From: Crocosphaera subtropica ATCC 51142
Lineage (GTDB): Bacteria > Cyanobacteriota > Cyanobacteriia > Cyanobacteriales > Microcystaceae
DNA length: 32,000 nt
NCBI RefSeq assembly: GCF_000017845.1
Contig: NC_010547.1
Location: forward strand, 150,001-182,000
Reading direction: 5' to 3'
Part shown: in pieces, positions 21,294-31,822 of the stretch
Layout of the letters: each line of letters begins with the position of its first letter
Position numbering within the stretch: the stretch's first letter is position 1
Translations under genes and position numbers: made by a program
The notes under the pieces: model-generated
Databases searched by the model: none
Told to the model about the DNA's origin: nothing
What the model saw: only the letters and a program-made list of their open reading frames with translations

Positions 21294-21521
21294 AAATTGA
21301 AATATTTTCTTTATATATCAAATATACATAGTAAAATTAGAAGCAGAAAAGAGTATTTTATTGTTAGTATATGATCTATCAAAAAGAAGATATAAAATAT
21401 TTTAAAAGTTTGTTAATATTTTAAATGGTAAAGAAAGTTATTAAAGAAAAAATAGTAACAACTACATAAAAATAAAACTTAAAAATATTATTGAAGTTTA
21501 CATTACTCCTACACAAAAATA

Positions 21522-22205
21522 ATGAATAAACAAGAAAATAGCTTAAGATTACCACCGACTATACCTAATATTAACCAAGAACTAGAACAAGCAATTACCT
21601 TACTCGGAAACCGAGTACAAACAGACTTAAAAGATAAAACTAAGAAAAAGTTAATAAAATTAGTGGGGGAGTATCCCACTAAAGAAACAGCGTATGAATG
21701 GAAACTATCACTAAAGCAAATAGTTAAAAAAAGTCCTATATTGCAAACTCCTAACCCCCGATCTGATACAACGTATACTACTTGTTCTTTACAAAAAGAA
21801 TCTCTAGATCGATATAGTAATGTACCTCAAAGTTTAGGAGAAACAAGAATAATACTAGATTATATAAAATATAAATTAAAGCATTACTATTTAGAGGATG
21901 AAGGACGGTACGATGAAATTTTTCTAAAACAATTAAAATATTGGTACCAATGGTTTCCTCATGATGTGAGAGAAGATGAATTCAGTAAAAAACTATTTAA
22001 AATTTGTTTAGGAGAAAAATCAAAAGAAACTTCTTCTGATTTTAATTACGTCAAGTACAAATATGATCTATTTCCAGAAATAATAACACCTTCTGAATCA
22101 GCTGAATTCATCGACCCTTTAGTACAATTGGCTTTATCAAAAGTGGATTGGAAACTATTAACAAAGCGATTATTAAAAACTTTAAATCTTGAAATTCGTA
22201 GCTAG
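21522..22205 (+). CDS. Hypothetical protein in an AT-rich insert
   Basis: 227-aa K/Y/N-rich ORF. Visibly lower G+C than its neighbours, and preceded by a 228-nt stretch that is almost pure A/T. Confidence 0.45.
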   Translation: MNKQENSLRLPPTIPNINQELEQAITLLGNRVQTDLKDKTKKKLIKLVGEYPTKETAYEWKLSLKQIVKKSPILQTPNPRSDTTYTTCSLQKESLDRYSNVPQSLGETRIILDYIKYKLKHYYLEDEGRYDEIFLKQLKYWYQWFPHDVREDEFSKKLFKICLGEKSKETSSDFNYVKYKYDLFPEIITPSESAEFIDPLVQLALSKVDWKLLTKRLLKTLNLEIRS

Positions 22206-22208
22206 CGC
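22201..22208 (+). promoter_or_regulatory. GCTAGCGC motif, copy 1
   Basis: Exact 8-mer, 36 nt upstream of ATG 22237. It overlaps the stop codon of the previous ORF. Confidence 0.5.
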
Positions 22209-22236
22209 TTATTAGCAAAAAAATTAAGAGTAACAA

Positions 22237-22626
22237 ATGATGTTAAAAGTTGTTATTGCTGCAAGTGAGGGCTTTGGAGATTATTATTTATTAGAGAGAG
22301 CGCTAGATAAAATCCTGAAAAACCATGTCGAAATTGAGTTACTATCCATCCATTCAAAAACCCTGAATCGAATTATCGACCTCTACGCTCGCAAACGAGA
22401 AGTAGTTACACGTCGATTCGTGCCTAATTTACTCAATCACGGCGAAAACGCCAAAAATATCGTTATTGAAGAAATCATCGAATACGCTTCTCACGCTATT
22501 TTATTCGTAGATGAAAACCAGGAATTAGACACGGTATTGACAAGGATTCGAGACAGTGGCTTACATTGGAGGGTCATTAAATATAAGGATGTACTCGCTG
22601 AGAAACTTTATAATCAAAAAGCTTAG
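22237..22626 (+). CDS. DUF2493/SLOG-like protein with degenerate nucleotide-binding loop
   Basis: 129 aa. The layout matches DUF2493: KVVIAASEGFGDYYLLERALDKIL ... EIELLS ... ASHAILFVDEN ... GLHWRVIKY. The usual SGGAxGxD loop is replaced by SIHSKTLN. Confidence 0.4.
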   Translation: MMLKVVIAASEGFGDYYLLERALDKILKNHVEIELLSIHSKTLNRIIDLYARKREVVTRRFVPNLLNHGENAKNIVIEEIIEYASHAILFVDENQELDTVLTRIRDSGLHWRVIKYKDVLAEKLYNQKA

Positions 22627-22676
22627 TGACTACAAACCTGGTATGATCAGGCACCCTGTGGTTGTGTTTTTATTCC

Positions 22677-22716
22677 TAGTTCTAGCTATATAATATTATA
22701 AAAATAGCTAGAACTA
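22677..22716. promoter_or_regulatory. Inverted repeat IR1: TAGTTCTAGCTAT-N14-ATAGCTAGAACTA
   Basis: Perfect 13-bp arms. The junction of the left arm and spacer forms TATAAT (22689-22694). The repeat ends 7 nt before ATG 22723. Confidence 0.5.
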
Positions 22717-22722
22717 AGTATC

Positions 22723-23367
22723 ATGCCTATAAAACAGTGCGCCTACGGATTTAGCTGTGCATCAATGATGATGCAATGGGATTTAGCCCCAGAAGATTGC
22801 CCTAACAAAGATGTGTGCGGAATAATCACGAAACTAACCGAAGAAGAAGAAATCGAACTCTATCAGGCTCGATTAGAGAATAATCGCCGCATTGTAGAGA
22901 GAATCCGTATCAATCAAGAACAAGCAGCTTTATGCCTTCTTCTTAATCGGGGGGATACCCAAACTTCTGAAAGTTTAGGAGTAACAGACACTTTAGCGGA
23001 ACTTCAAACAGCAATTTCTTTGCTAGAATCAACGATCAATGAACTAGATGAAGGATATATCGCTCCTGTCGGAGTAGAAGCACACCGTTATACTGTCAAA
23101 CGTCCCTACAATTGTTATGAGTACAATAAGCTTACCGCCAAAGATGCCATTTTCGAGCCTCAAACTAAGCACAATAAAGTAAAGGTTATCCATCTTTCCA
23201 AAGACGACGATCAGCGAAATATCAAAGGCAGAGCCGGAATAGAAAAAAGAAACAGACTCCTGGCTATCAAGAGACAAATCAAAGCAGCGACTGAATTACT
23301 GAATGAGGCTAGAGAAGCCGTTTCTAGAGAGTCAATAGATGAAGCAGTCACGAGGAAGATTACCTAA
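22723..23367 (+). CDS. Hypothetical protein (Cys-rich N-terminus, helical middle, basic C-terminus)
   Basis: 214-aa ORF bracketed by IR1 and IR2. No family recognised. Confidence 0.55.
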   Translation: MPIKQCAYGFSCASMMMQWDLAPEDCPNKDVCGIITKLTEEEEIELYQARLENNRRIVERIRINQEQAALCLLLNRGDTQTSESLGVTDTLAELQTAISLLESTINELDEGYIAPVGVEAHRYTVKRPYNCYEYNKLTAKDAIFEPQTKHNKVKVIHLSKDDDQRNIKGRAGIEKRNRLLAIKRQIKAATELLNEAREAVSRESIDEAVTRKIT

Positions 23368-23378
23368 TAATGGTATTG

Positions 23379-23416
23379 AGTTCTAGCTATTAATAACTTT
23401 ATATTTAGCTAGAACT
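23379..23416. promoter_or_regulatory. Inverted repeat IR2: AGTTCTAGCTA-N16-TAGCTAGAACT
   Basis: Perfect 11-bp arms with the same sequence as IR1. It starts 12 nt after the stop of ORF 22723-23367 and ends 7 nt before the GCTAGCGC motif at 23423. Confidence 0.5.
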
Positions 23417-23422
23417 AGAGCC

Positions 23423-23430
23423 GCTAGCGC
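23423..23430 (+). promoter_or_regulatory. GCTAGCGC motif, copy 2
   Basis: Exact 8-mer, 47 nt upstream of the terD GTG at 23470. GGAAAA lies 11 nt downstream of the motif end. Confidence 0.5.
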
Positions 23431-23469
23431 GGGGCTGTCTGGAAAATAAAACAATAGAGGTTTAAACCC

Positions 23470-24057
23470 GTGATCGAATTATCTAAAGGAATCGAACTAG
23501 ACTTCGAGAAAGCAATGCCTGAACTCGTCGCTGCTATGTTAGGCATGGGTTGGAATGTTAACAAAGACGACAGTACAGATACGACAGAAGACGACTTCGA
23601 CTTGGACTCATCTGTGTTTATGCTCGACAAGTCTGGGAAGTTACCTGACAAACATCATGTTGTTTATTACAACAATTTGAAATCCCCTGACAGCGAAGTT
23701 TGTATCGAACACATGGGTGATAACTTAACCGGTGCAGGAGAAGGAGACGACGAAGTTATCTTGTTCGATCTCAGAAAAGTCCCTGATTATATCCACAAGT
23801 TGGTTATCACTGTCACAATTCATCGGGCTCAAAAACGAAATCAGAATTTTGGCATGGTTGAGGATGCTTTTCTAAGGGTAGTCAACGTGAGTTCCAAAGA
23901 AGAAGTGTTGCGGTTCGATCTCGATGAGGAATTTACCCTAGAAACTTCTGTGATTTTGACTGAAATTTATCGGACTGACACCGGATGGGCAATCAAGGCA
24001 CTTGCCGAAGGTGTTGATGGTGGGCTTGACGAGTTGGTCAGTAAGTACACCGCGTAA
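23470..24057 (+). CDS. terD: TerD-domain stress protein
   Basis: 195 aa with a GTG start and AGAGG 9 nt upstream. TerD hallmarks are present: IELSKG start, DLDSSVFMLD, and the Ca-binding-type acidic loop GDNLTGAGEGDDEVI. Confidence 0.85.
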   Translation: MIELSKGIELDFEKAMPELVAAMLGMGWNVNKDDSTDTTEDDFDLDSSVFMLDKSGKLPDKHHVVYYNNLKSPDSEVCIEHMGDNLTGAGEGDDEVILFDLRKVPDYIHKLVITVTIHRAQKRNQNFGMVEDAFLRVVNVSSKEEVLRFDLDEEFTLETSVILTEIYRTDTGWAIKALAEGVDGGLDELVSKYTA

Positions 24058-24094
24058 CCTCTCGCAAACCCACTTAGCAACAGACTTTTAGCAC

Positions 24095-24142
24095 TCCGCA
24101 GCAACTACTGTTTCTCTTATAGAATACAGTGGTTGCTGCGGA
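24095..24142 (+). repeat. Hairpin repeat copy 1 (TCCGCAGCAAC...GTTGCTGCGGA family)
   Basis: 17-bp outer stem with one T-G wobble, plus a 4-bp inner stem and a CTTAT apical loop. It starts 38 nt after the terD stop. Confidence 0.8.
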
Positions 24143-24263
24143 TATTAGTGACCAAATCCTTTAGGTATAAAGTTACTCACTATGTCGTGGGTAACTCTAT
24201 ATTTTTGACAAAGATGTTCGATTTCTAATAATGCTGAAAATCTTGGTATTACTTTGTTTGAGG

Positions 24264-24315
24264 CTTCCGCAGCAACTACTATTTCTCTTATAAATTATAG
24301 CGGATGCTGCGGAAG
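24264..24315 (+). repeat. Hairpin repeat copy 2
   Basis: CTTCCGCAGCAACTACTATTTCTCTTATAAATTATAGCGGATGCTGCGGAAG. The 11-bp outer stem is perfect; the inner stem is degraded (A-A, T-G, A-C). Confidence 0.8.
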
Positions 24316-24386
24316 TATTGAACGCTTATCAGTTACGGAATAAAAGCTGATATTAGAATTAATAACTTAGGTTATAACTTTTTTCG

Positions 24387-24409
24387 GTCTACGAATCGTA
24401 GACTCTTTT
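24387..24409 (+). terminator. Weak intrinsic terminator
   Basis: GTCTACG-AAT-CGTAGAC stem-loop followed by TCTTTT. Confidence 0.4.
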
Positions 24410-24468
24410 AGAGGCTTCATTTTTTGCGCCAATCCTTTTCGGCAAAGTTTTAGTCATGTTGTTCTACC

Positions 24469-24476
24469 ACTAGCGT
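24469..24476 (+). promoter_or_regulatory. Near-match ACTAGCGT (CTAGCG core)
   Basis: Matches the motif at 6 of 8 positions, 40 nt upstream of ATG 24509. Confidence 0.3.
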
Positions 24477-24508
24477 TGGTTGGTCCGATAGTTAGAAAGA
24501 ATCAAAAA

Positions 24509-24988
24509 ATGCCACCAACAAGAGAATTCTCAGACCGAATCCCTGTCGGGCGACTAATTGTCCAGAAAGCTTGCATCGAGGTAGCCGTGGATAGATTAAA
24601 TGAAATCTACGAGGGAAACGAGATTGCTGCTTCTATTCTGTTAGAGTTGAAAATGGCTGCTAAATTAGCAGAGGTCTTTAATGAAACGTGGTCCTCAGTT
24701 TACTGGCTAGAAGCAAGGAAACGAACCCGCGATCGCGTAAAAATGACCCTGAAAGACATAGCAGCAAAAATAATCGACCATGTGGAAGAAGCTATGACAC
24801 TTTTTGATGAGCTTTGCGATGAACAAGACGTAAATCCAACATTGGAATTATCGAATCAATGGATCGCGTTTCAAGCAGGGCTAGACCTAATAAAAAGAGA
24901 CCTGCAATATCACGACGATTTTGTAAAGAGGAACTCTATTGAGTATTTGCCCATTATTAGACTCATCGAGGAAAATTCAAAAAAATGA
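24509..24988 (+). CDS. Hypothetical helical protein
   Basis: ATG 24509 is preferred over the TTG at 24476, because a CTAGCG-core motif lies 40 nt upstream of it. 159 aa. The stop overlaps the next start (ATGA). Confidence 0.55.
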   Translation: MPPTREFSDRIPVGRLIVQKACIEVAVDRLNEIYEGNEIAASILLELKMAAKLAEVFNETWSSVYWLEARKRTRDRVKMTLKDIAAKIIDHVEEAMTLFDELCDEQDVNPTLELSNQWIAFQAGLDLIKRDLQYHDDFVKRNSIEYLPIIRLIEENSKK

Positions 24989-25218
24989 AAGATATTGATC
25001 AATTGATCTCTGACCTGCGACTGGTTGGTAAGCTAAGTCATTCAGCTATAACCCATAATCAACGACAAGTTACCCACCTATGCTATCCCAGAAGTCAGAA
25101 AACACTGTGCGGACTGTGTTGTAAGACTTTGACATCAATAGACGTAGTTGGGTCAGAGATTTGTGCAAACTGCGAAAGAGTAGCCAAAAAACTACAGGCT
25201 AGCGCCAACAACAAGTGA
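24985..25218 (+). CDS. Small zinc-ribbon protein
   Basis: 77 aa with CGLCC ... CANC (CxxC-N17-CxxC). Translationally coupled to the upstream ORF through a 4-nt overlap. Confidence 0.55.
   Translation: MKDIDQLISDLRLVGKLSHSAITHNQRQVTHLCYPRSQKTLCGLCCKTLTSIDVVGSEICANCERVAKKLQASANNK
25198..25205 (+). promoter_or_regulatory. GCTAGCGC motif, copy 3
   Basis: Exact 8-mer, 46 nt upstream of ATG 25244, inside the last codons of the Zn-ribbon ORF. TGAAAA lies 11 nt downstream. Confidence 0.5.
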
Positions 25219-25243
25219 AAACTAAGCTTAAAGGAGCAAACCG

Positions 25244-25477
25244 ATGGAATTTCTAAAAGAACACGTAGCTGATTACCTATCAAACCATCCTGAGTTAGTT
25301 TCACCTTTTACCAGAGGGGATGAAGAAGCCCTAGAAACCGTTATCGAAAGTACCGAATTGCAGATCTTTATCAGTGAACAGAGAGACGGGAACCCAACCG
25401 ATAGCGATTATGATTGGCTCATCGAATCTGTCTGGGAATTGAGCGAGGATAAAACATTTATCGATGCGATCGCCTGA
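25244..25477 (+). CDS. Small, highly acidic protein
   Basis: 77 aa, rich in D/E. AAGGAG lies 9 nt upstream and GCTAGCGC 46 nt upstream. Confidence 0.55.
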   Translation: MEFLKEHVADYLSNHPELVSPFTRGDEEALETVIESTELQIFISEQRDGNPTDSDYDWLIESVWELSEDKTFIDAIA

Positions 25478-25483
25478 CAAAGT

Positions 25484-25534
25484 TTCCGCAGCAAGGACTA
25501 TTTTCTATAAGAGAAATAGAACTTGCTACGGAAG
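25484..25534 (-). repeat. Hairpin repeat copy 3 (inverted orientation)
   Basis: The reverse complement, CTTCCGTAGCAAGTTCTATTTCTCTTATAGAAAATAGTCCTTGCTGCGGAA, matches copy 1 at about 40 of 48 positions. Its one stem mismatch is a wobble only when read on the minus strand. Confidence 0.8.
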
Positions 25535-25601
25535 CTATATTCCTTACCCCGTCTGCAATAGAGAGTAATACGCAGTCATGTTTCATCGCCCTTTTTTTTT
25601 T

Positions 25602-25609
25602 GCTAGCGC
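25602..25609 (+). promoter_or_regulatory. GCTAGCGC motif, copy 4
   Basis: Exact 8-mer, 45 nt upstream of ATG 25647, immediately after a T10 run. TGAAAA lies 11 nt downstream. Confidence 0.5.
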
Positions 25610-25646
25610 AGGGTTGGTTTGAAAAGCAACTAGGTGAGGGCAATTC

Positions 25647-27302
25647 ATGCAAACCTTTCAAATCACAGTCGATAGTAATGTTTTAGAAAAAGCTAAACAC
25701 TTTTTCAATTCAGGATTGAACGATATTCTTAACGAACTTCTACAGAATGCCCGTAGAGCAAAAGCCTCCTGTATTTGGATTAGAACCTATATCGAAGACG
25801 GTATGCGCTTTTGTTCTATCATGGACGATGGAGAAGGCATTTTCAAAGAGGATGTCAGAATAGCTCTAGGTGGAAGTGATTGGGACTCTGAGATCCAAGA
25901 ATCAGAAAATCCTGCGGGATGCGGACTATTCTCGTTAGCAAACCGAGGATGCCAAATCGAGGCTAATGGAAAAAGAGTAAATATCACGTCAGAAGCCTTT
26001 ACCGGGAAAATTCCAGTAGCAATCGAAGAGACTGAATTTAGTAACGGAACAAGAATTGATTTTGTGCTTAACGCTGAAGAATCTGAAAGCCTTGAAGAAA
26101 CAGTCAATAAGGCGACTAAGTATTATTCTTTGCCAGTGTATTTCGAGCGTACCAGGATAAAGCGACGTGATTTCCTCGAAGCCGCTTTGTTCATCAAAGA
26201 ATGGTCTGGGCTACGGATTGGTGTCGTAGAAGAAACCTATTGTTGGCATGACGGAGAAATAAACTTTCATGGTCTTACCGTAGAGCAAAACTTTTCTCAT
26301 ATTCTTCTCAGTAAAGCCCGTGAAATTTATCGAGTAAAATACCTGACTACACGGATCGAGGTCATTGATTGCCCTGAATTAAAGCTCGTCTTACCTGCGC
26401 GGAAAGAAGTCGTGCAAAACGAGTTTCTAGCCCAACTTCAAGTGGAGTGTGAGCGCACGATTTACGAGTACATCCGCAAGTTATATGCACACCGACTCCC
26501 GTATCAGTCATGGGAAAAGGCAAAGACTCTAGGCGTTGACCTGCCTGAAGCAGAACCTAAGTTATACACCTGGGTTCCTGATTGCTTGGATAATTACAGT
26601 GGTTGTAATGGAGAGTTAGTCGATGTCAATGACCGATGCTTATTGGTCGATGTGACTGACGAAACCTATGACCTTGCTGATTACCACGTATTTGCCCATG
26701 CTTGGAACCGATCAGGGAACGGGATTCTCCTAGAGCCTGATCCCGATTATGCAGGGTATTCTTGGTATAATGCCTTGACCAAAATCGTGGACTTCTCGGT
26801 AATTGTCCAATTAAGGGACGAGAAAGAGCCCTTAGAACGGTGCATGAGAAGTACCAAGTTTCAGCGCCCAGACGATATCAGAATCATCTATTTCACTCTG
26901 AAGGGAAACGCTGATAAAGAACCATTAGCCAATAAACTATCCACTGACATTGCTTTCATTTCGGAACTCGATGACGGAATTTGGGGTGGAATCGAGGATG
27001 TGACCTTACTCATCACCAAGGATAGTGAAACCAACACCGAAACTCTCAATCGTCTTCTAATGAATGTTTACTTCCAAACAAGTGATTGTACTGATGAGTT
27101 TGGCTATGATACCCAACGAGAAATGTTCAGTAGCGAAATTAACCAACTGATCAACTCTGTTCTTCATGATGAAGACTACGCGAACCGCCAGAAGATAGCT
27201 GAATTAGCACAGAAGGTTCTAGCGTGGGAAACACCATACGGCAAAACAACTCAAATCACGATTAAGCCGGGTGGCAATATCGACGTAACATTCATCGACT
27301 AG
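25647..27302 (+). CDS. GHKL-superfamily ATPase (Hsp90/MORC-like Bergerat fold) with ~400 aa of unassigned C-terminal sequence
   Basis: 551 aa. N-box ILNELLQNARRA, G1 box DDGEGI, G2-like GCGLFS. Confidence 0.65.
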   Translation: MQTFQITVDSNVLEKAKHFFNSGLNDILNELLQNARRAKASCIWIRTYIEDGMRFCSIMDDGEGIFKEDVRIALGGSDWDSEIQESENPAGCGLFSLANRGCQIEANGKRVNITSEAFTGKIPVAIEETEFSNGTRIDFVLNAEESESLEETVNKATKYYSLPVYFERTRIKRRDFLEAALFIKEWSGLRIGVVEETYCWHDGEINFHGLTVEQNFSHILLSKAREIYRVKYLTTRIEVIDCPELKLVLPARKEVVQNEFLAQLQVECERTIYEYIRKLYAHRLPYQSWEKAKTLGVDLPEAEPKLYTWVPDCLDNYSGCNGELVDVNDRCLLVDVTDETYDLADYHVFAHAWNRSGNGILLEPDPDYAGYSWYNALTKIVDFSVIVQLRDEKEPLERCMRSTKFQRPDDIRIIYFTLKGNADKEPLANKLSTDIAFISELDDGIWGGIEDVTLLITKDSETNTETLNRLLMNVYFQTSDCTDEFGYDTQREMFSSEINQLINSVLHDEDYANRQKIAELAQKVLAWETPYGKTTQITIKPGGNIDVTFID

Positions 27303-27310
27303 ACAAGAGA

Positions 27311-27338
27311 GAGAGGAGGCTTCGGCCTCTTCTTTTTT
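27311..27338 (+). terminator. Intrinsic terminator after the GHKL gene
   Basis: GAGAGGAGGC-TTCG-GCCTCTTC stem with a TTCG tetraloop, followed by a T-run. Confidence 0.75.
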
Positions 27339-27431
27339 CCGACAAAATCCCGACGAAATCTAGCACGAAAAACCGACTAAGTTTAGGGCATTATAAAGTA
27401 ACCTATATCTCAGACTGGGCAAGGATTACAA

Positions 27432-27482
27432 CCTTCCGCAGCAGTTACTATTTTTCTTATATAAAATCGTGGTTGCTGCGGG
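27432..27482 (+). repeat. Hairpin repeat copy 4
   Basis: CCGCAGCAGTTAC ... GTGGTTGCTGCGG: a 13-bp stem containing three consecutive G-T/T-G wobbles, an A/T inner stem, and a loop containing CTTAT. Confidence 0.8.
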
Positions 27483-27502
27483 TAGCTTTTGATCTGTCAA
27501 TC

Positions 27503-27687
27503 GATTGCAGATTGCCGAGGGCAGATTGTAGATTGACCCCTGCTTGAAAGACAGTGGCTTGGGATTAAAGATTGTAGATTTTAGATTAATTGTTGATTGT
27601 TGAGGGTAGATTTCAGATTGACCAATGCTTGAAAGTCAAGGCTTGTTCTTACTTAATCTCCAATCTGCAATCTCCATTCTCCAATCT
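27503..27687. repeat. AGATTG / CAATCT repeat array upstream of dnaX
   Basis: About 9 forward (A)GATT(G) units lie in 27503-27620, and 4-5 inverted CAATCT units lie in 27655-27687. GATTGCAGATTG (27503-27514) is the exact reverse complement of CAATCTGCAATC (27661-27672). A ~31-nt direct repeat, AGATTGACCnnTGCTTGAAAG..GGCTTG, occurs at 27530 and 27615. Confidence 0.8.
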
Positions 27688-27698
27688 TTGGTCAGGAG

Positions 27699-27706
27699 CC
27701 TAGCGG
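27699..27706 (+). promoter_or_regulatory. Near-match CCTAGCGG (CTAGCG core)
   Basis: Matches the motif at 6 of 8 positions, 44 nt upstream of the dnaX ATG at 27743. Confidence 0.3.
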
Positions 27707-27742
27707 CTGGTCATCTTGACAAAGATATTAGGAGCCAGTCTT

Positions 27743-28861
27743 ATGCCCAACGTAAAAACAAAACAAGCTTTTCAACCGTGGCACTTAAAATATCGCCCTC
27801 AATCAATCAATGATTTGACGGGGCAAGACTCAGTACAAAAGGTATTGACCCGATTGATCACGGAAGATTCCGTACCTCAAGCCTTGTTGTTATCTGGGCC
27901 TAAAGGCACAGGAAAAACTAGCACTGCTCGGATTATTGCCATGAGTTTGAACTGTGAGAAAGGCGTGACCACAACGCCCTGTGGCGAGTGCAAGAACTGC
28001 AAAGCCATACAAAACGGTAACAGCTTAGACGTTGTAGAGCTTGATGCCGCTTCGCATAATGGCGTTGATGATATCAGAAAGTTAGTTGCTGATGCGGGCT
28101 ATGCTCCGTTCTCTGCGCGTACCCGTGTGTTTATCATTGATGAAGCCCATCAACTTAGTAATTCTGCACAAAATGCTTTTCTTAAGACCCTTGAAGAACC
28201 CAACAACCATACCAAGTTCTTACTAGCAACCACCGAACCTCACAAAATGCTAGAAACAGTGAGGAGTCGCTGTTTACCCCTTCGCTTCCGACCCATTTCC
28301 CAATCAGAAGTGGCGCAGCGACTAGAGGACATTGCTAAGAAAGAGGGAGTCTCCATTGATGATAGTTGCCTAGAAGCGATCGCCCGAAGTTCTAAAGGGG
28401 GGATGCGCGATTCGATTCAACTTCTCTTTGAGGTGTTTTGCCACAAAGAAGGAGACGAACCAGTCAAAGTCGATAAAGTCTATGAAGTGACGAAGGAGCT
28501 TAATCCCACGCAAGTTGAATTCTTGCTATCGGCGGTAGCTCAAGGAGATAGCTACAATTTAGTTCGGTGTTGCAACGCGATTGAAGAGTCAGCCCTCGAT
28601 ATCAACAAAGTCTTTGATGCGTTGTTGACTGCATGGACGGACGTTATGGCAGTTGTCCTAGGAGCCAACCCGAAGCAAATCGCCAAAACCTCAATTTTAG
28701 GTACAGAGAACTTAGAGACACTCAGTCAGAAACTCGACTTAACCATGCTGACAGTGGGGCTAGAAAAGTTAGACCAAGCTGAAAGACGCATTGCGACCTC
28801 TTCTAACAGTAGTCGCTGGCTGTTAGCTACTTTATTGTCCTTAGTCAATGGAGGTGAGTGA
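27743..28861 (+). CDS. dnaX: DNA polymerase III gamma-like clamp-loader ATPase (short DnaX, no tau C-terminal domains)
   Basis: ATG 27743 (AGGAG upstream) is preferred over the TTG at 27716. Walker A GPKGTGKT, Zn module CGECKNCKAI, Walker B FIIDEAH, and SRC motif VRSRCLPLRF. Only ~372 aa. Confidence 0.85.
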   Translation: MPNVKTKQAFQPWHLKYRPQSINDLTGQDSVQKVLTRLITEDSVPQALLLSGPKGTGKTSTARIIAMSLNCEKGVTTTPCGECKNCKAIQNGNSLDVVELDAASHNGVDDIRKLVADAGYAPFSARTRVFIIDEAHQLSNSAQNAFLKTLEEPNNHTKFLLATTEPHKMLETVRSRCLPLRFRPISQSEVAQRLEDIAKKEGVSIDDSCLEAIARSSKGGMRDSIQLLFEVFCHKEGDEPVKVDKVYEVTKELNPTQVEFLLSAVAQGDSYNLVRCCNAIEESALDINKVFDALLTAWTDVMAVVLGANPKQIAKTSILGTENLETLSQKLDLTMLTVGLEKLDQAERRIATSSNSSRWLLATLLSLVNGGE

Positions 28862-28862
28862 T

Positions 28863-29768
28863 ATGCTTTATGTCATCGCAGGAGACGACACCTTCCGAAA
28901 GTCAGAAAAGATCGCAGCAATCATCAAAGAAGGGGACTACGAAAGGTTTAATGTAGTTTCCCTCGAAGATGCGATTAGGGATGCACTGAGTCCAGGTCTG
29001 TTCTCAAAGAAAGCAATGGTATTTGAGGGCAAAGAGATTCCTTACAAGGATTCTAAGCCTTTAGAACCTGTTGTGAATAGTGAAAATGCCGTGATTCTCG
29101 ATATTACTTCTGTAGATGGTCGTACCAAGTTAGGTAAATGGCTAAACAAACAAAAGTGTGTTGAAAGAATCAACGCGCTAAACCAATTCCAAGAAGATAA
29201 AATCAAAGCCGAACTAGCGATGCGATCGCTTAAATTGGGACTTGACCTAAGTATCCATGCTAAACAGTATTTATTAGAAGCGGTTGGGCCAGACATTGGA
29301 AGAATGCAAAGAGAACTAGAGCTAATCAAAGCCTATTTCGGAGATGGTCAGGTTCTTGCCACAGAGTTACCGACGTTAGTACCGGATTATGCACAAACTA
29401 GCTACCAACTAGCAACAGCACTGACCGAATTCCCAAAGACAGTCTATGAACGGACTCAAAGTTTAATTGACCTTGGGATTCATCCATTGCAAATCTTGGC
29501 AACTCTTATCAATCGCATAGAAAAGCTTATGCTCACCGCCATTGGTATAGAGTCAGGGTTAGCAAGAGAACAGATAGCAGAGGAATTGCTGCACCTGCCC
29601 AATAATGGACGAGTATTCTACCTCATTAAAGACGTGGAATATCTCTCAGCAAAGCAACTACAGCAAGCTTTTGTTGAATTGTGCGGGCTTACTCATCGAC
29701 TGAAACGAGGCACTCAGACTGAGAGACTGCCTCTTGAATTGGCGCTGATTGCCTCAAAGTTAGCATAA
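28863..29768 (+). CDS. holA: DNA polymerase III delta-like subunit (HolA family)
   Basis: ATG 28863 lies 1 nt after the dnaX stop, with GGAGGTGAG upstream. MLYVIAGDD start, and collinear similarity by eye to HolA blocks (AKQYLLEAVGPDIGRMQRELELI, PLQILATLINRIEKL, LSAKQLQQAFVEL). Confidence 0.7.
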   Translation: MLYVIAGDDTFRKSEKIAAIIKEGDYERFNVVSLEDAIRDALSPGLFSKKAMVFEGKEIPYKDSKPLEPVVNSENAVILDITSVDGRTKLGKWLNKQKCVERINALNQFQEDKIKAELAMRSLKLGLDLSIHAKQYLLEAVGPDIGRMQRELELIKAYFGDGQVLATELPTLVPDYAQTSYQLATALTEFPKTVYERTQSLIDLGIHPLQILATLINRIEKLMLTAIGIESGLAREQIAEELLHLPNNGRVFYLIKDVEYLSAKQLQQAFVELCGLTHRLKRGTQTERLPLELALIASKLA

Positions 29769-29777
29769 CTATGCAAA

Positions 29778-29808
29778 AGCTAGGTTTTAGACCTGGCTAT
29801 TTTTTTTT
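29778..29808 (+). terminator. Intrinsic terminator after holA
   Basis: AGCTAGGT-TTTAG-ACCTGGCT 8-bp stem followed by A plus T9. Confidence 0.75.
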
Positions 29809-29892
29809 ATCTAGTTGTGGGGAAGCCACGCTTTCTACCTTCTTAAAAATCAGTGTGCGGAGTCGTTACTAGGTTGCTCCACGGAAAATAAC

Positions 29893-29900
29893 GCTAGCGC
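29893..29900 (+). promoter_or_regulatory. GCTAGCGC motif, copy 5
   Basis: Exact 8-mer, 42 nt upstream of ATG 29935. Confidence 0.5.
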
Positions 29901-29934
29901 GAATGTCAATGACAAGTTATTGGAGGCTTCGTTT

Positions 29935-30120
29935 ATGATTTGTCCAATCATTGCACAATATGCTCGTATCGTTGAAGTTCATCTCTTTCAGGAGTACGTT
30001 ACAATTTTTGTAGAAGGACGCGGTACTTTTCACGTTCGTATGCTAATGAGCAAATTAGCTTGTTCTTTAGAGGATAAGCCCTATTCTTCTTGTAACCGAG
30101 AAGACGGAATTCCTTTCTAG
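29935..30120 (+). CDS. Small hypothetical protein (61 aa)
   Basis: ATG 29935 is preferred: GGAGG lies 8 nt upstream and GCTAGCGC 42 nt upstream. The longer 29815 start would begin just after, and reads through the region of, the holA terminator. Confidence 0.5.
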   Translation: MICPIIAQYARIVEVHLFQEYVTIFVEGRGTFHVRMLMSKLACSLEDKPYSSCNREDGIPF

Positions 30121-30129
30121 GAAATTACT

Positions 30130-30154
30130 AGCCCTCGATAGGGCTTTTTTTTTT
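30130..30154 (+). terminator. Intrinsic terminator
   Basis: AGCCCT-CGAT-AGGGCT followed by T10. Confidence 0.8.
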
Positions 30155-30179
30155 GCTATTGTTGAATGAGAAAATAAAT

Positions 30180-30187
30180 GCTAGCGC
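30180..30187 (+). promoter_or_regulatory. GCTAGCGC motif, copy 6
   Basis: Exact 8-mer, 43 nt upstream of ATG 30223 and 26 nt after a terminator. Confidence 0.5.
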
Positions 30188-30222
30188 AAGATTAAACGAC
30201 CTTAAAAGATACCAGTGAAAAT

Positions 30223-30408
30223 ATGTGCGAAAACAGAGTCACCCTCAATATTTCTGAACGAGAGTTAGCCACTATACTGGCCTCTTTAGAATTATTCAGA
30301 AAGGAACGAGCAAAGGAAGACTTTAGACCATATTCAGAGCAATTCGAGGAAATTGAGCCTCTGACAGTTGAAGAAGTGGATAAGCTTACTGACTATCTGG
30401 AAAATTAG
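30223..30408 (+). CDS. Small hypothetical protein (61 aa) consisting of one RELATIL...EPLT domain
   Basis: The ORF sits between a promoter motif and a terminator. It is paralogous to residues 83-130 of the next gene product. Confidence 0.55.
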   Translation: MCENRVTLNISERELATILASLELFRKERAKEDFRPYSEQFEEIEPLTVEEVDKLTDYLEN

Positions 30409-30415
30409 AGAATTG

Positions 30416-30445
30416 GAGCTAGGTGTCATCCCAGCTCTTTTTTTT
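30416..30445 (+). terminator. Intrinsic terminator
   Basis: GAGCT(A)GG-TGTCATC-CCAGCTC followed by T8. Confidence 0.7.
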
Positions 30446-30448
30446 CAG

Positions 30449-30456
30449 GCTAGCGC
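30449..30456 (+). promoter_or_regulatory. GCTAGCGC motif, copy 7
   Basis: Exact 8-mer, 41 nt upstream of ATG 30490 and 4 nt after a terminator T-run. Confidence 0.5.
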
Positions 30457-30489
30457 CAGTTAAAGCGACCTTTATTCGCTTAAAAACTA

Positions 30490-31329
30490 ATGAGCAATCA
30501 AAATAAAGCATGGGATTTATATCTTAAGGGAAACAAGCTCGCAGAAGAACAGAAGATCGAAGAAGCGATCGCAGTCTATAAAGAATCAATTGATCTCTAT
30601 CCCCACCATGAAGAAGTTTATAATAACTTAGGGGTTCTTTACCATGACTTAGGCAAACACGAAGATGCAACCGCGTTTTTTGAGCAAGGAATTGCGATCG
30701 CCATGAGAAATACCAAGGCTCCCAGTCCTCAGTTTAATCCCAGAGAATTAGCCACGATATTAGTGGCACTCCGATTGTTCCAGAGAACGCCAAGTGTAAA
30801 GAAGCAACTATTAGAATATTTCGAGGAAACCGAACCCTTAACTGCGTCTGAGATAGATGAGTTATGTGAACGACTCAACTGTTCATGCTCAAGCACAGAC
30901 CTCGCATCCAAAACACTAAATATTAGTGAAAGGCTGACAGCGATCGGGGAAATCGAAGTTTTAATGGCTGAGAGTTACAGAATAAGGACATTGACTCGAA
31001 TTTGGGCTACTTTTCCTGAAATTACCTCAGTCGAATTTGCCGAGATTGAAGAAGGTACTGAGGTGGCACCAGGAACGATTGCTTTGACCGATATTCAGTT
31101 TATAAGCGAAGATTCTGCTACAGAGATTATCAAACGAAATAATCTTGAATTAGTCTCAGATCAATATCGTATAGAAGGGGATTCACTACAATTCTGGCAA
31201 TATCTCCTTTTATCAACATCGCCGACAGAAAAACTTATCGGTAAGCATGACCGTCCCGACGAGCTACCGAATCTTATCGATGTTATCGAACAAGTTTCCG
31301 ATCTGGGGAAACGCTTAGCAATCGACTAG
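30490..31329 (+). CDS. Hypothetical protein: N-terminal TPR pair, RELATIL...EPLT domain, unassigned C-terminal half
   Basis: 279 aa. TPR-like AIAVYKESIDLYPHHEEVYNNLGVLYHDLGKHEDATAFFEQGIAI. Central NPRELATILVALRLFQ...FEETEPLTASEIDELCERLN. Confidence 0.6.
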   Translation: MSNQNKAWDLYLKGNKLAEEQKIEEAIAVYKESIDLYPHHEEVYNNLGVLYHDLGKHEDATAFFEQGIAIAMRNTKAPSPQFNPRELATILVALRLFQRTPSVKKQLLEYFEETEPLTASEIDELCERLNCSCSSTDLASKTLNISERLTAIGEIEVLMAESYRIRTLTRIWATFPEITSVEFAEIEEGTEVAPGTIALTDIQFISEDSATEIIKRNNLELVSDQYRIEGDSLQFWQYLLLSTSPTEKLIGKHDRPDELPNLIDVIEQVSDLGKRLAID

Positions 31330-31360
31330 CGTCAGTAAACTTAGAAAGATTCATTTAACT

Positions 31361-31384
31361 AAGGGCATTATGCCCTTTTTTTTT
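31361..31384 (+). terminator. Intrinsic terminator
   Basis: AAGGGCA-TTA-TGCCCTT followed by a T-run. Confidence 0.8.
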
Positions 31385-31457
31385 GATGTAGGATGCACCT
31401 CCGACGAGTTACAGCGATTTTGATCAGTTATTTCGACAAATCAAAGAGGGGGAAAGG

Positions 31458-31465
31458 GCTAGCGC
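31458..31465 (+). promoter_or_regulatory. GCTAGCGC motif, copy 8
   Basis: Exact 8-mer, 43 nt upstream of ATG 31501. Confidence 0.5.
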
Positions 31466-31500
31466 CCACCTGAAAGGGAAATATCAGAGCAAAAAATCAA

Positions 31501-31701: not shown

Positions 31702-31717
31702 GAGGGAAAAAGACTAG

Positions 31718-31750
31718 GAGGAGATGAGTAATAGTCATCCTCTTTTTTTT
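31718..31750 (+). terminator. Intrinsic terminator
   Basis: GAGGA(GA)TGA-GTAATAG-TCATCCTC followed by T8. Confidence 0.7.
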
Positions 31751-31822
31751 GTAAGCGATTGTCACAAAAGATCACCCAGCGTCGCTTAAAATAATATGGA
31801 ATAAAGCGAGGTCGATTCATTA

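What the first reader, a model, noticed from the sequence alone, without database searches (positions are those of the whole stretch)
22201..31465. GCTAGCGC: a strand-specific 8-mer fixed 36-47 nt upstream of at least eight start codons, suggesting an element-specific promoter or operator regulon
The exact 8-mer occurs 8 times (22201, 23423, 25198, 25602, 29893, 30180, 30449, 31458). Every copy is on the + strand, and I found none in the first 22 kb. Each lies 36-47 nt upstream of a + strand start (22237, 23470, 25244, 25647, 29935, 30223, 30490, 31501). Two variants with the CTAGCG core sit at the same distance from two more starts: 24469 to ATG 24509 (40 nt) and 27699 to ATG 27743 (44 nt). 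A given 8-mer is expected about once in 64 kb of two-strand sequence at even base composition, and less often for a six-G/C word in AT-rich DNA. After three copies (23423, 25198, 25602), a G followed by AAAA falls at exactly +12 to +16 from the motif end, and similar A-tracts lie within 1-2 nt for copies 22201 and 31458. Several copies follow directly after intrinsic terminators. The motif therefore marks the 5' ends of transcription units and supports revised start codons at 24509, 27743 and 29935. It does not resemble a standard sigma-70 -35/-10 pair. No dedicated sigma factor or RNA polymerase is visible in the window, so the factor that reads it is unknown.
Basis: seen in the sequence. Interest (0 to 1): 0.7.

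Follow-up and report, generated by a model that had tools for sequence, protein, structure and literature searches.

The report
DNA mini-hairpin marking gene starts
The repeated 8-mer is real, and on the opposite strand it spells a known ultra-stable DNA "mini-hairpin" placed about 40 bases before more than 20 genes of a cyanobacterial plasmid-like element, so it is most likely a structured start signal for transcription read by a factor not yet identified.

Summary
GCTAGCGC occurs 8 times in the window, always on the + strand (0.28 expected), each copy 36-47 nt before a start codon.

The window comes from the 430-kb linear chromosome of Crocosphaera subtropica (Cyanothece) ATCC 51142. The array continues past the window end, giving at least 22 sites in about 19 kb. 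The same motif, at the same distance from orthologous genes, is present in relatives as distant as about 60% protein identity and 53% GC.

Three findings are new:
- **Flanking bases covary as complements.** Position -1 pairs with +9 in 29 of 34 sites, and all four Watson-Crick pair types occur.
- **The reverse complement, GCGCTAGC, fits d(GCGNNAGC).** This is the extraordinarily stable "mini-hairpin DNA" known from N4 phage early promoters and from primase signals. It lies on the template strand of the genes. One lineage uses GCGTTAGC or GCGTAAGC instead.
- **A GA dinucleotide peaks 11 nt after the motif.** This is a likely start site and leaves leaders of about 24 nt.

Many copies abut the T-run of the upstream terminator, and no sigma-70 consensus is present.

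Best reading (about 0.5): a template-strand hairpin promoter, N4-like in logic, with an unidentified reader. No start sites have been mapped. Rivals are primase signals, an ops/boxB-like element, and an operator.

The parts
22200..22209 (+). Site 1: a-GCTAGCGC-t. It overlaps the TAG stop of gene 21522-22205 and lies 36 nt before ATG 22237 (SLOG/YAcAr protein).
23421..23432 (+). Site 2: cc-GCTAGCGC-gg (4-bp stem), 47 nt before GTG 23470 (TerD). GA at 23442. The ortholog in L001 reads ac-GCTAGCGC-gt, a compensatory change.
24469..24476 (+). Variant site ACTAGCGT. The outer pair is swapped to A..T and the cGNNAg core is kept on the - strand. It lies 40 nt before ATG 24509. GA at 24487. Conserved in L001 and L002.
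25197..25206 (+). Site 3: g-GCTAGCGC-c, inside the 3' end of gene 24985-25218 and 46 nt before ATG 25244. GA at 25217.
25601..25610 (+). Site 4: t-GCTAGCGC-a, directly abutting a T10 run and 45 nt before ATG 25647 (GHKL ATPase). GA at 25621.
27697..27708 (+). Variant site ag-CCTAGCGG-ct, 44 nt before ATG 27743 (dnaX-like and holA-like pair). GA at 27718. CCTAGCGGCT is conserved in the 70%-identity relative L019 although the flanks differ.
29892..29901 (+). Site 5: c-GCTAGCGC-g, 42 nt before ATG 29935 (61-aa ORF). This motif+ORF+terminator module is absent from L001, L013 and L019.
30179..30188 (+). Site 6: t-GCTAGCGC-a, 25 nt after terminator 30130-30155 and 43 nt before ATG 30223. GA at 30198.
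30448..30457 (+). Site 7: g-GCTAGCGC-c, 3 nt after a terminator T-run and 41 nt before ATG 30490 (TPR protein). GA at 30467.
31456..31467 (+). Site 8: gg-GCTAGCGC-cc, 43 nt before ATG 31501 (66-aa membrane protein). GA at 31478.
29778..29807 (+). Intrinsic terminator after the holA-like gene, conserved in all relatives. In L001, L013 and L019 its T-run is followed within 5-8 nt by the motif.
20451..21293 (+). cce_4937: no motif upstream, here or in the L024/L030/L034 family. Helical N-terminal part plus a KOW/Tudor-like barrel. Candidate regulator only.
16605..20222 (+). Rep-like protein with an AEP PrimPol domain (residues ~37-171) and a DUF3987 helicase. No motif upstream. It is the only nucleic-acid-synthesising enzyme seen in the element and a candidate hairpin reader.

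Best explanation
Each copy is a gene-start signal for an independent transcription unit, that is, a promoter whose specificity element is a DNA mini-hairpin.

On the template (-) strand the motif reads 5'-N(1-3) GCG-CT-AGC N'(1-3)-3'. That gives two G-C pairs, a sheared G.A pair, a two-base loop (CT) and 1-3 extra variable pairs. I infer that this folds when the strand is single-stranded. That could happen by supercoil-driven extrusion, as at phage N4 early promoters, or because the element enters a cell as single-stranded DNA. A protein would then read the loop and closing pairs. RNA synthesis would begin 10-13 nt further on, at a pyrimidine-G-A, giving leaders of about 20-30 nt that hold the ribosome-binding site. 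Each unit ends at its own intrinsic terminator.

Shown: the motif, its strand and position bias, the covariation, the match to d(GCGNNAGC), its conservation across a family, and the GA peak.

Inferred: that it is a promoter, that the hairpin forms in vivo, the start site, and the strand that is read.

Unknown: the reading enzyme. Candidates are the element's PrimPol-helicase, the motif-less cce_4937 protein acting with host RNA polymerase, or a gene outside the sequence seen.
For: (1) Statistics and position. The window has 8 copies against 0.28 expected, all on the + strand. The Crocosphaera element has at least 22 sites, and I found about 70 distinct sites across relatives. These lie 36-50 nt before a start codon, whereas the distance to the upstream stop ranges from -20 to +129 nt.

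(2) Where the space is lacking, the motif is embedded in the upstream gene (25198, 22201), which preserves the spacing to the next start.

(3) 15 of 70 sites have a T-run ending within 14 nt upstream. Several touch the terminator's T-run, leaving no room for another promoter. Nothing upstream is conserved, and the sigma-70 scan is at chance level.

(4) The motif is absent before the second gene of overlapping pairs (dnaX-holA, DUF6878-TIM barrel). It is also absent before - strand genes and inserted foreign modules (BrnTA, HicAB, IS, group II intron).

(5) Covariation.
- The flank pair -1/+9 is complementary in 29 of 34 sites.
- In the single Crocosphaera element it is complementary in 19 of 22 non-homologous sites.
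- Mean extra pairs are 1.61 against 0.38 in shuffles (0 of 5000 shuffles reach it).
- On 46 distinct 14-mers the covariation score is 0.466 against 0.14 (0 of 500).
- The pair next to the 8-mer is Watson-Crick in 40 of 46, uses four pair types and has no G-U.

(6) 8-mer variants with complementary ends (CC..GG, AC..GT) sit before genes. TAGC-core variants with non-complementary ends do not.

(7) The reverse complement equals d(GCGNNAGC), the mini-hairpin DNA. The review reports a Tm of 76.5 C for the prototype GCGAAAGC and 4-5 C lower for the loop variants it measured; the GCTA loop found here is not among the values I read. The RNA form melts at 39 C. Its known natural uses are N4 promoters, G4 ori and RSF1010 ssiA. 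The L029 lineage uses GCGTTAGC or GCGTAAGC: the loop's G and A are invariant and the middle two bases change.

(8) N4 early promoters have the same logic: a GC-rich core with a sheared G:A, variable inverted repeats whose identity is irrelevant if pairing is kept, location on the template strand, and a fixed distance to +1.

(9) GA peaks at +11, and the GA-to-start distance has a median of 24 nt.

(10) One unit consists of the motif, about 60 nt and a terminator with no ORF (L022 14710), as expected for a promoter.
Against: - No transcription start data exist for any site.
- No RNA polymerase, sigma factor or N4-like vRNAP was found from window 13.4 kb to the end of the element, or in six related loci.
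- Stems are short (3-5 Watson-Crick pairs). Generic DNA parameters predict only -0.9 to -4.6 kcal/mol, so extrusion from duplex DNA is unproven.
- The centre-to-GA distance (14.5-17.5 nt) differs from N4 (11 nt).
- In one orthologous pair the motif-to-GAC spacing differs by 4 nt (L024 7414 against L026 6322).
- Two of the three known natural mini-hairpins are primase signals, and the element encodes a PrimPol.
- The wobble-versus-mismatch counts do not tell which strand folds.
Confidence: 0.5

Rival explanations
1. Single-strand initiation (primase) signals. The mini-hairpins on the - strand would be recognition sites where the element's PrimPol-helicase (or a host primase) lays down primers. 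This would serve complementary-strand or lagging-strand synthesis, as at RSF1010 ssiA and the G4 origin. A dual role (primer plus mRNA), as reported for F-plasmid Frpo, is a variant of this idea.
For: - Mini-hairpins occur in G4 ori and in ssiA, which is read by the AEP-type primase RepB'.
- The N-terminus of the Rep protein at 16605 matches a solved PrimPol AEP domain at E = 2e-26.
- The regulon and its relatives encode a clamp loader, SSB and RNase H.
- All sites are on one strand, spaced 0.3-4 kb apart.
- Single-stranded DNA promoters in plasmid leading regions also affect complementary-strand synthesis.
Against: - A priming signal has no reason to sit 36-50 nt before start codons in about 70 sites.
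- It has no reason to be embedded in an upstream gene to keep that spacing.
- It has no reason to be missing before the second gene of overlapping pairs.
- From my own knowledge, known ssi signals are few per replicon and lie at origins.
Confidence: 0.15
2. A signal read after initiation. [quoted passage not shown] It would recruit an antiterminator, a ribosome-coupling factor or an endonuclease to each cistron of long read-through transcripts.
For: - ops (GGCGGTAGCGTG) shares TAGCG with the motif and forms a small hairpin in the non-template strand. RfaH is proposed to help ribosome loading on genes that lack Shine-Dalgarno sites.
- Only 35 of 70 downstream genes have an SD-like tetramer.
- The motif-less conserved protein cce_4937 has a KOW/Tudor-like barrel.
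- Covariation would also fit an RNA hairpin.
- Sites 22201 and 25198 lie within apparent operons, with no terminator before them.
Against: - Many sites touch the T-run of a strong terminator, and no upstream promoter is evident, so little RNA would contain them.
- The pairing register found by covariation differs from that of ops, and the base before the motif is not the C that the ops register needs.
- Across lineages the loop is UAGC, UAAC or UUAC on the + strand, which is not one stable RNA loop class (own knowledge). The - strand always fits cGNNAg.
- The RNA form of the mini-hairpin is far less stable.
- The pair next to the 8-mer shows no G-U.
- No NGN-domain protein was found.
Confidence: 0.15
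3. A double-stranded operator for a repressor or activator. Examples would be oriented 'stoperator'-like sites as in mycobacteriophage L5, or a Kor-type global plasmid regulon, acting on host sigma-70 promoters.
For: - The sites are oriented, intergenic, numerous and confined to one element.
- HTH and RHH proteins are encoded nearby (13425, 20451).
Against: - Complementarity of non-conserved flanking bases cannot be read by a protein on duplex DNA.
- No sigma-70 -10 or -35 element sits at a fixed offset.
- Roadblocks placed immediately after terminators would be redundant.
Confidence: 0.07
4. Recombination sites that bound mobile gene cassettes (integron attC-like folded single-strand sites), or a small repeated mobile or REP-like element.
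For: - The sites are strand-specific folded-DNA sites between co-oriented genes.
- One motif+ORF+terminator module is present in the window but absent from three relatives.
Against: - Gene order is conserved down to about 60% protein identity.
- The site is 10-14 nt long, not 57-141 nt (the attC length is from my own knowledge).
- No integrase lies next to the array.
- The tight spacing to start codons is not expected for such sites.
Confidence: 0.03

Closest known systems
Early promoters of coliphage N4, read by the virion RNA polymerase (PMC4496689; PMC13037366)
   Same: - A GC-rich core that forms a mini-hairpin with a sheared G:A pair.
- The core is flanked by inverted repeats whose sequence is free as long as they pair.
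- It lies on the template strand.
- It sits a fixed short distance upstream of the start.
- It bears no resemblance to sigma-70 promoters.
   Different: - N4 has 3 such promoters with a 3-base loop (GCGGAGC or GCGAAGC type) centred at -11. Here there are at least 22 per element, with a GCG-CT-AGC 8-mer, and the putative start lies 14.5-17.5 nt from the centre.
- No T7-like or N4-like polymerase gene was found.
- The host is a cyanobacterium and the element is plasmid-like, not a phage.
Mini-hairpin DNA d(GCGNNAGC)/d(GCGNAGC) (Hirao and colleagues; review PMC13037366)
   Same: - The - strand of every exact copy is GCGCTAGC.
- The L029 lineage has GCGTTAGC and GCGTAAGC.
- The variants keep the cGNNAg core.
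   Different: The physical stability of the CT-loop version in this context was not measured. The natural flanks add 1-3 further pairs.
Single-strand initiation signals read by primases (RSF1010 ssiA with RepB'; phage G4 origin)
   Same: - A mini-hairpin in single-stranded DNA sits close to the point where synthesis starts.
- An AEP-family primase is encoded by the same replicon.
   Different: Those signals are one or two per replicon, lie at origins and are unrelated to genes. Here the copies are many and each is tied to a start codon.
Frpo-type single-stranded DNA promoters in the leading region of conjugative plasmids (PMC11541004; bioRxiv 10.64898/2026.01.09.698686)
   Same: - Structured single-stranded DNA would allow expression of co-oriented early genes (ssb, anti-defence genes).
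- The gene content here (SSB, TA modules, restriction-related genes, TraD and ParAB next to the cluster in L030) resembles a leading region.
   Different: - Frpo is a hairpin of about 300 nt that mimics a duplex -35/-10 promoter for host RNA polymerase (own knowledge). This signal is 10-14 nt with no -35 or -10.
- Whether this region is ever transferred as single-stranded DNA is unknown.
ops element recognised by RfaH (PMC5995543)
   Same: - ops is a short oriented DNA signal that folds into a tiny hairpin.
- It shares the pentamer TAGCG with the motif.
- It lies upstream of genes with weak ribosome-binding sites.
   Different: - ops lies on the non-template strand, occurs once per operon, sits downstream of a promoter and has a different pairing register.
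- No NusG paralog was seen here.
Upstream conserved sequence (UCS) promoters of the yeast linear plasmids pGKL1/2 (own knowledge, not checked here)
   Same: A very short element-specific motif sits a few tens of nt before nearly every gene of a linear replicon.
   Different: Those plasmids encode their own RNA polymerase, and the motif is not a hairpin.

Membership tests
Mini-hairpin DNA d(GCGNNAGC) | Sequence GCGNNAGC (or the cGNNAg core) on one strand | tested here: met
   The reverse complement of GCTAGCGC is GCGCTAGC. In the window, 9 GCGNNAGC lie on the - strand (8 of them with a CT loop) against 1 on the + strand.
Mini-hairpin DNA d(GCGNNAGC) | Folds as two G-C pairs plus a sheared G.A pair, with exceptional thermal stability | not testable with these tools
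   Generic DNA nearest-neighbour folding gives -0.9 to -4.6 kcal/mol and favours the - strand by 0.4 kcal/mol. The special stability is not captured by conventional thermodynamic models.
N4 vRNAP-type hairpin promoter | GC-rich core flanked by variable inverted repeats that must pair | tested here: met
   criterion
N4 vRNAP-type hairpin promoter | Hairpin on the template strand at a fixed distance from +1 | tested here: inconclusive
   The stable form lies on the template strand of the downstream genes. GA peaks at +11 after the motif. No start site has been mapped.
N4 vRNAP-type hairpin promoter | A T7-like or N4-like single-subunit RNA polymerase encoded or carried by the element | tested here: not met
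   Pfam and PHROG scans of the element's proteins, and precomputed Pfam hits in six related loci, show none. Only part of the 430-kb replicon was seen.
N4 vRNAP-type hairpin promoter | Dependence on negative supercoiling and SSB | not testable with these tools
   An ssb gene belongs to the motif-bearing gene set in the L024, L026, L030 and L034 relatives.
Primase ssi signal (ssiA / G4 ori type) | Hairpin in single-stranded DNA, with a cognate primase on the replicon | tested here: met
Primase ssi signal (ssiA / G4 ori type) | One or a few copies at an origin, with placement independent of genes | tested here: not met
   At least 22 copies, each 36-50 nt before a start codon.
Sigma-70-type promoter | -35 and -10 hexamers with 16-18 nt spacing at a fixed offset | tested here: not met
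   The consensus scan is at chance level (39 found against 43 expected) and no hit is aligned with the motif. There is no information outside the 8-mer except the GA at +11.
ops / RfaH | GGCGGTAGnnTG on the non-template strand, with a C3:G8 hairpin register | tested here: not met
   By my own comparison, 6 of 8 bases match over ops positions 4-11. The base preceding the motif is variable (A3 C6 G4 T7), and covariation supports a different register.
Integron attC | 57-141 nt imperfect palindrome with R''/L''/L'/R' boxes, and an adjacent IntI integrase | tested here: not met
   The site is 10-14 nt long, no integrase is adjacent, and gene order is conserved. The attC criteria are from my own knowledge.
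Rfam RNA families | Match to any curated covariance model | tested here: not met
   No hit reached a gathering threshold in 13000-32000.

The most novel reading that the evidence does not exclude
A family of cyanobacterial plasmid-like replicons expresses some twenty genes from template-strand DNA mini-hairpins that are read by a non-canonical enzyme. That enzyme could be the element's own PrimPol-helicase acting as a hairpin-primed RNA synthesiser, or host RNA polymerase redirected by a new hairpin-binding factor such as cce_4937. This would let the genes be expressed from single-stranded DNA on entry into a new cell. It would be a second, independent invention of N4-style hairpin promoters, outside phages and at regulon scale.
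Probability: 0.2. Interest if true: 0.9.

Novelty: new variant of a known kind. Interest (0 to 1): 0.78.

Why it matters
Promoters read as folded single-stranded DNA are known from very few systems. The review read here lists N4 early promoters for transcription, and G4 ori and RSF1010 ssiA for priming (PMC13037366). The much larger Frpo hairpins of F-like plasmids are a further case.

Here the same physical device, d(GCGNNAGC), appears to organise a whole set of genes. These include a clamp loader, SSB, RNase H, a GHKL ATPase, TerD and several domains of unknown function. The device is conserved across hosts with 38-53% GC, and no matching polymerase is in sight.

If it is a promoter, three things follow:
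- A new transcription specificity would be defined in cyanobacteria.
- The question of who reads it becomes directly testable, because the signal is a 12-nt oligonucleotide.
- A compact, orthogonal, insulated expression part (hairpin plus terminator units) would be available for cyanobacterial engineering.

It also gives a precise rule for correcting start codons and finding small genes in these elements. Finally, it suggests that this part of the Cyanothece 51142 linear chromosome is a plasmid-derived module with its own expression programme.

Tried and rejected
- **Nucleotide searches.** Megablast of 20-32 kb against the plasmid and phage collections found nothing.
- **Literature.** A search for the 8-mer returned only cloning primers. 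A search for six cce_49xx locus tags found no paper.
- **Collection scans.** Scans of metagenome and viral contigs with the dnaX-like alignment found no relatives. Relatives came instead from homologs of cce_4955.
- **The GHKL ATPase as a guide to related elements.** Its homologs sit in unrelated contexts.
- **Distant relatives without the motif.** These were DUF3987 plasmids (Gloeocapsa, Chroococcidiopsis), a Nostoc plasmid with a cce_4937 homolog, an Acaryochloris plasmid with DUF488, and two phage-like contigs. No alternative enriched k-mer stood out in the two DUF3987 plasmids apart from HIP1 and iterons.
- **DnaA boxes.** The boxes of the published linear-chromosome oriC are not clustered in the window.
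- **PDB sequence searches.** Searches with cce_4937, cce_4938, the 214-aa protein and DUF6878 gave nothing useful.
- **Choosing the folding strand from wobble counts.** TG+GT = 8 and CA+AC = 10, which is uninformative.
- **Ideas considered and dropped:**
  - Chi/KOPS-like polar sequences and restriction sites (GCTAGC is NheI): these predict no link to start codons.
  - A sigma-54 -12 GC element: there is no -24 GG, and from my own knowledge cyanobacteria lack rpoN.
  - A T4-late-like single -10 element: this does not explain the covariation.

Full report
**Observation**

GCTAGCGC occurs eight times in the window (22201, 23423, 25198, 25602, 29893, 30180, 30449, 31458). All copies are on the + strand and none lies in the first 22 kb. 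Shuffles give 0.28 on average and never more than 2. Allowing one mismatch adds no further + strand site.

The distances to the next + strand start codon are 36, 47, 46, 45, 42, 43, 41 and 43 nt. A position-by-position count over 20 non-redundant sites shows that the information is confined to the 8 bases. Nothing upstream is conserved, and there is only a weak purine-rich patch downstream.

**Where the window comes from**

The holA-like protein is 100% identical to a Crocosphaera subtropica protein found on a 429,701-bp contig. This is the linear chromosome of Cyanothece ATCC 51142 (see PMC4674748). The genes are around cce_4937 to cce_4955.

Positions 1-13.4 kb hold ordinary cyanobacterial genes: a CHASE2 kinase, a CHAT protein and a TPS/ShlB pair. 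From 13.4 kb a co-oriented plasmid-like block begins, in this order:
- a ribbon-helix-helix protein and a response regulator;
- a 1205-aa Rep-like protein with a DUF3987 helicase, whose N-terminus matches a solved PrimPol AEP domain at E = 2e-26;
- cce_4937 and cce_4938;
- the motif-bearing genes: SLOG, TerD, small proteins, a GHKL ATPase, a dnaX-like and holA-like pair, and a TPR protein.

An identical Logan contig (L014/L022) extends 9 kb beyond the window. It carries ten more exact copies and two more CCTAGCGG variants, all on the + strand. Most are 36-50 nt before a start. The block ends at an IS element and toxin-antitoxin genes on the other strand. The element therefore has at least 22 sites in about 19 kb.

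**Conservation**

- In Crocosphaera chwakensis CCY0110 (L001) and Cyanothece sp. BG0011 (L002, L013), at 80-94% nucleotide identity, the motif is kept at orthologous sites while the flanks drift.
- In a relative with 70% HolA identity (L019), GCTAGCGC follows the holA terminator, 46 nt before the TPR gene. CCTAGCGGCT is kept 50 nt before dnaX although the surrounding sequence is unrelated.
- Homologs of cce_4955 led to metagenomic elements of 50-53% GC (L024, L026, L027, L030, L034). Their proteins are 31-63% identical. The shared core consists of the cce_4937-like protein, dnaX, holA, the GHKL ATPase, a 61-aa protein, DUF6878, a TIM-barrel protein and DUF488. These elements also carry RNase H and SSB. 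There the same GCTAGCGC (and ACTAGCGT before a 108-aa gene) sits 38-46 nt before these genes, on the + strand only.
- A still more distant element (L029) uses GCTAACGC or GCTTACGC in the same place.
- More remote relatives of single genes have no such motif. This covers Gloeocapsa, Chroococcidiopsis, Nostoc and Acaryochloris plasmids and two phage-like contigs.

**It is a hairpin**

The bases flanking the 8-mer are not conserved but are complementary to each other:
- The pair -1/+9 is complementary in 29 of 34 sites, and no shuffle in 20,000 reached this. The pair -2/+10 is complementary in 15 of 34.
- Within the single Crocosphaera element, 19 of 22 mutually non-homologous sites have the first flank pair. 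By my calculation, the binomial probability at p = 0.25 is about 2e-9.
- Over 62 distinct sites, the number of extra Watson-Crick pairs is 0, 1, 2 or 3 in 7, 20, 25 and 10 sites and never more. The mean is 1.61 against 0.38 in shuffles (0 of 5000).
- On 46 distinct 14-mers with the structure (((((....))))), the covariation score is 0.466 against 0.14 (0 of 500 shuffles). Versions with the partner slid by 1-3 columns score 0.03-0.15. The pair adjacent to the 8-mer is Watson-Crick in 40 of 46, with GC, CG, UA and AU all used and no G-U.
- One orthologous pair shows a compensatory change: cc..gg in the window against ac..gt in L001.
- The 8-mer variants found before genes keep complementary ends (GC..GC, CC..GG, AC..GT). 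TAGC-core 8-mers with non-complementary ends are never followed by a start at the right distance.

A protein bound to duplex DNA cannot sense complementarity of unconserved bases. The signal therefore has to fold as a single strand.

**Which strand**

The reverse complement of GCTAGCGC is GCGCTAGC. This matches d(GCGNNAGC), the 'mini-hairpin DNA' of Hirao and colleagues. According to the review PMC13037366:
- it has two G-C pairs and a sheared G.A pair;
- the Tm is 76.5 C for GCGAAAGC and 4-5 C lower for loop variants such as GTTA;
- CCGAAAGG still melts at 65 C;
- the RNA version melts at 39 C.

The lineage variants fit this reading. On the - strand they are GCGCTAGC, GCGTTAGC and GCGTAAGC, so the G and A of the loop never change and the middle two bases do. 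CCTAGCGG and ACTAGCGT keep the cGNNAg core with a swapped outer pair.

On the + strand the loops would be UAGC, UAAC or UUAC. To my knowledge these do not form one stable loop class. In the window, GCGNNAGC occurs 9 times on the - strand, 8 of them with a CT loop, and once on the + strand. The stable structure is therefore on the template strand of the downstream genes. The fixed CT loop implies sequence-specific reading by a protein.

**What it does**

The same review lists the known natural uses of mini-hairpins: the phage G4 origin (primase), RSF1010 ssiA (RepB' primase) and the N4 early promoters (virion RNA polymerase).

The N4 review (PMC4496689) describes a GC-rich heptamer centred at -11 with a sheared G:A. 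It is flanked by inverted repeats whose identity is irrelevant provided the hairpin is kept. It is read on the template strand after gyrase-driven extrusion stabilised by SSB. This is the same logic as seen here.

Four lines of evidence tie the signal to gene starts rather than to replication.
1. The distance to the next start codon is tight (mostly 38-47 nt), whereas the distance from the previous stop ranges from -20 to +129 nt.
2. Where intergenic space is lacking, the motif is written into the end of the upstream gene (22201, 25198).
3. The motif is missing before the second gene of overlapping pairs, before - strand genes and before inserted foreign modules.
4. 15 of 70 sites have a terminator T-run ending within 14 nt, and several touch it. 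This leaves no room for another promoter. The sigma-70 consensus scan is at chance level.

A second element supports a start site. A GA dinucleotide peaks 11 nt after the motif (28 of 68 sites; 54 of 68 within +9..+14, against 18 and 23 of 68 in control windows). In the 20-site count the base before the peak G is a pyrimidine in 12 of 20. The distance from GA to the start codon is mostly 19-32 nt, with a median of 24, enough for the Shine-Dalgarno-like sequences seen in half of the genes. One unit at the end of the element has the motif, about 60 nt and a terminator but no ORF.

My best explanation, at about 0.5, is a template-strand hairpin promoter heading each transcription unit.

**Who reads it**

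This is unknown. No RNA polymerase or sigma factor was found in the element or in six related loci. Candidates:
- **The PrimPol-helicase**.
- **cce_4937.** It is the one conserved core gene that never has the motif upstream, here and in the L024 family. Its AlphaFold model (mean pLDDT 78.6) has a helical N-terminal part and a small barrel. The barrel resembles Spt5 KOW and Tudor domains, with probability near 1 but weak E-values. The family has more than 500 members in cyanobacterial plasmids, and the members I checked have no motif nearby.
- **Host RNA polymerase with an unknown adaptor.**
- **A gene elsewhere on the replicon.**

The gene content resembles the leading region of conjugative plasmids: SSB, RNase H, a clamp loader, toxin-antitoxin modules and restriction-related genes. 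In L030, parAB and a TraD-family gene lie just beyond the cluster and the genes point towards them. In such leading regions, single-stranded DNA promoters are known (PMC11541004; preprint). This link is an inference only.

**Rivals**

- **Primase signals.** They are supported by the PrimPol and by the G4 and ssiA precedents. They do not explain the coupling to start codons. A dual role is possible.
- **An ops- or boxB-like element read after initiation.** It is supported by the shared TAGCG with ops (GGCGGTAGCGTG) and by the KOW-like domain. It is weakened by the abutting terminators, the different pairing register and the strand asymmetry of loop conservation.
- **A duplex operator.** This is contradicted by the covariation.
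- **attC-like cassette sites.** These are contradicted by the size of the site and by the conserved gene order.

**Limits**

- No experimental start sites were available.
- Only about 41 kb of a 430-kb replicon was seen.
- Orthologous sites inflate some counts, although the within-element and distinct-sequence statistics avoid most of this.
- The special stability of mini-hairpins is taken from the literature and was not computed. Generic parameters give only -0.9 to -4.6 kcal/mol.

**Novelty**

I found no paper linking mini-hairpins to cyanobacteria and none in the held library citing six sampled cce_49xx locus tags from this block. The physical motif and the hairpin-promoter idea are known. 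Its use at regulon scale in plasmid-like elements, without an N4-type polymerase, is not. I rate it a new variant of a known kind.

Noticed in passing
window 24095-24143, 24266-24313, 25485-25533, 27435-27482; L001 6442, 6613, 7941, 9888, 14082, 17118; L022 ~14800: A repeated hairpin of about 50 nt, TCCGCAGCA-(ACTACTnTTTCTCTTATAnAAT...)-TGCTGCGGA, sits in the longer intergenic gaps, sometimes just upstream of a motif copy. It looks like a small REP- or MITE-like repeat. Whether it is specific to this element is unknown.
   Followed up: partly
window 22677-22716 and 23379-23416: Near-identical perfect inverted repeats (TAGTTCTAGCTAT ... ATAGCTAGAACTA) bracket gene 22723-23367. This is the one gene inside the block that lacks the mini-hairpin. 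The first repeat ends 6 nt before its ATG and the second precedes motif 23423. Both are conserved in L001 and L002 and contain CTAGC. They may be an operator or an attenuator for a separately regulated gene.
   Followed up: partly
window 27509-27687: A local cluster of the hexamer AGATTG (5 copies on the + strand, then 3 on the - strand, in 180 bp, against 16 in the remaining 31.8 kb), with a 7-nt tandem AATCTCC. It lies just upstream of the variant site before dnaX. Similar CAATCTSC repeats precede the motif before ssb in L024, L026 and L030. It could be an iteron-like or regulator-binding array.
   Followed up: partly
window 16605-20222: The 1205-aa PrimPol (AEP) plus DUF3987 helicase protein resembles the Rep proteins of large cyanobacterial plasmids (46-47% identity to Gloeocapsa and Chroococcidiopsis plasmid proteins). 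This suggests a plasmid-type replication module on the linear chromosome. A published study placed that chromosome's oriC elsewhere, from DnaA boxes (cce_5168/5169).
   Followed up: partly
L022 14710-14790 (about 9.1 kb beyond the window end): An orphan unit: GCTAGCGC, about 60 nt holding only ATG-TAA, then a strong terminator. A second copy at 14947 has a strong SD but only a 6-codon ORF. These are either small RNA genes or remnants of deleted genes.
   Followed up: no
window 30223-30408 and 30490-31329: The 61-aa protein and the middle of the TPR protein share a domain (RELATILxxLxLF...EPLTxxExDxLxxxL). The same small protein is conserved (32-39% identity) in the high-GC relatives.
   Followed up: no
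window 24205-24232: The best sigma-70-like match in the region (TTGACA, 16 nt, AATAAT; 11 of 12) lies between two copies of the hairpin repeat, about 240 nt upstream of the ACTAGCGT variant and gene 24509.
   Followed up: no
window, 11 sites (e.g. 6998, 17047, 24729, 28376, 30565): The cyanobacterial HIP1 palindrome GCGATCGC is the most over-represented 8-mer (11 copies against 0.1 expected). Unlike the finding, it is palindromic and lies mostly inside genes.
   Followed up: yes
window 20451-21293: cce_4937 belongs to a family with more than 500 members in cyanobacterial plasmids (Nostoc, Calothrix, Stanieria and others), often in several copies per plasmid and sometimes fused to an ASCH domain. 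All are annotated as hypothetical, and some are misnamed cytosine methylase. The model shows an HTH-like helical part plus a KOW/Tudor-like barrel.
   Followed up: partly
L018 19215-19380 and L017 19572-19654: Direct repeats (5x TACGATGCCCGCGTCAA; 4x TCTAGAACCCC) lie just upstream of the DUF3987 rep genes of the Chroococcidiopsis and Gloeocapsa plasmids. They are probably iterons.
   Followed up: no
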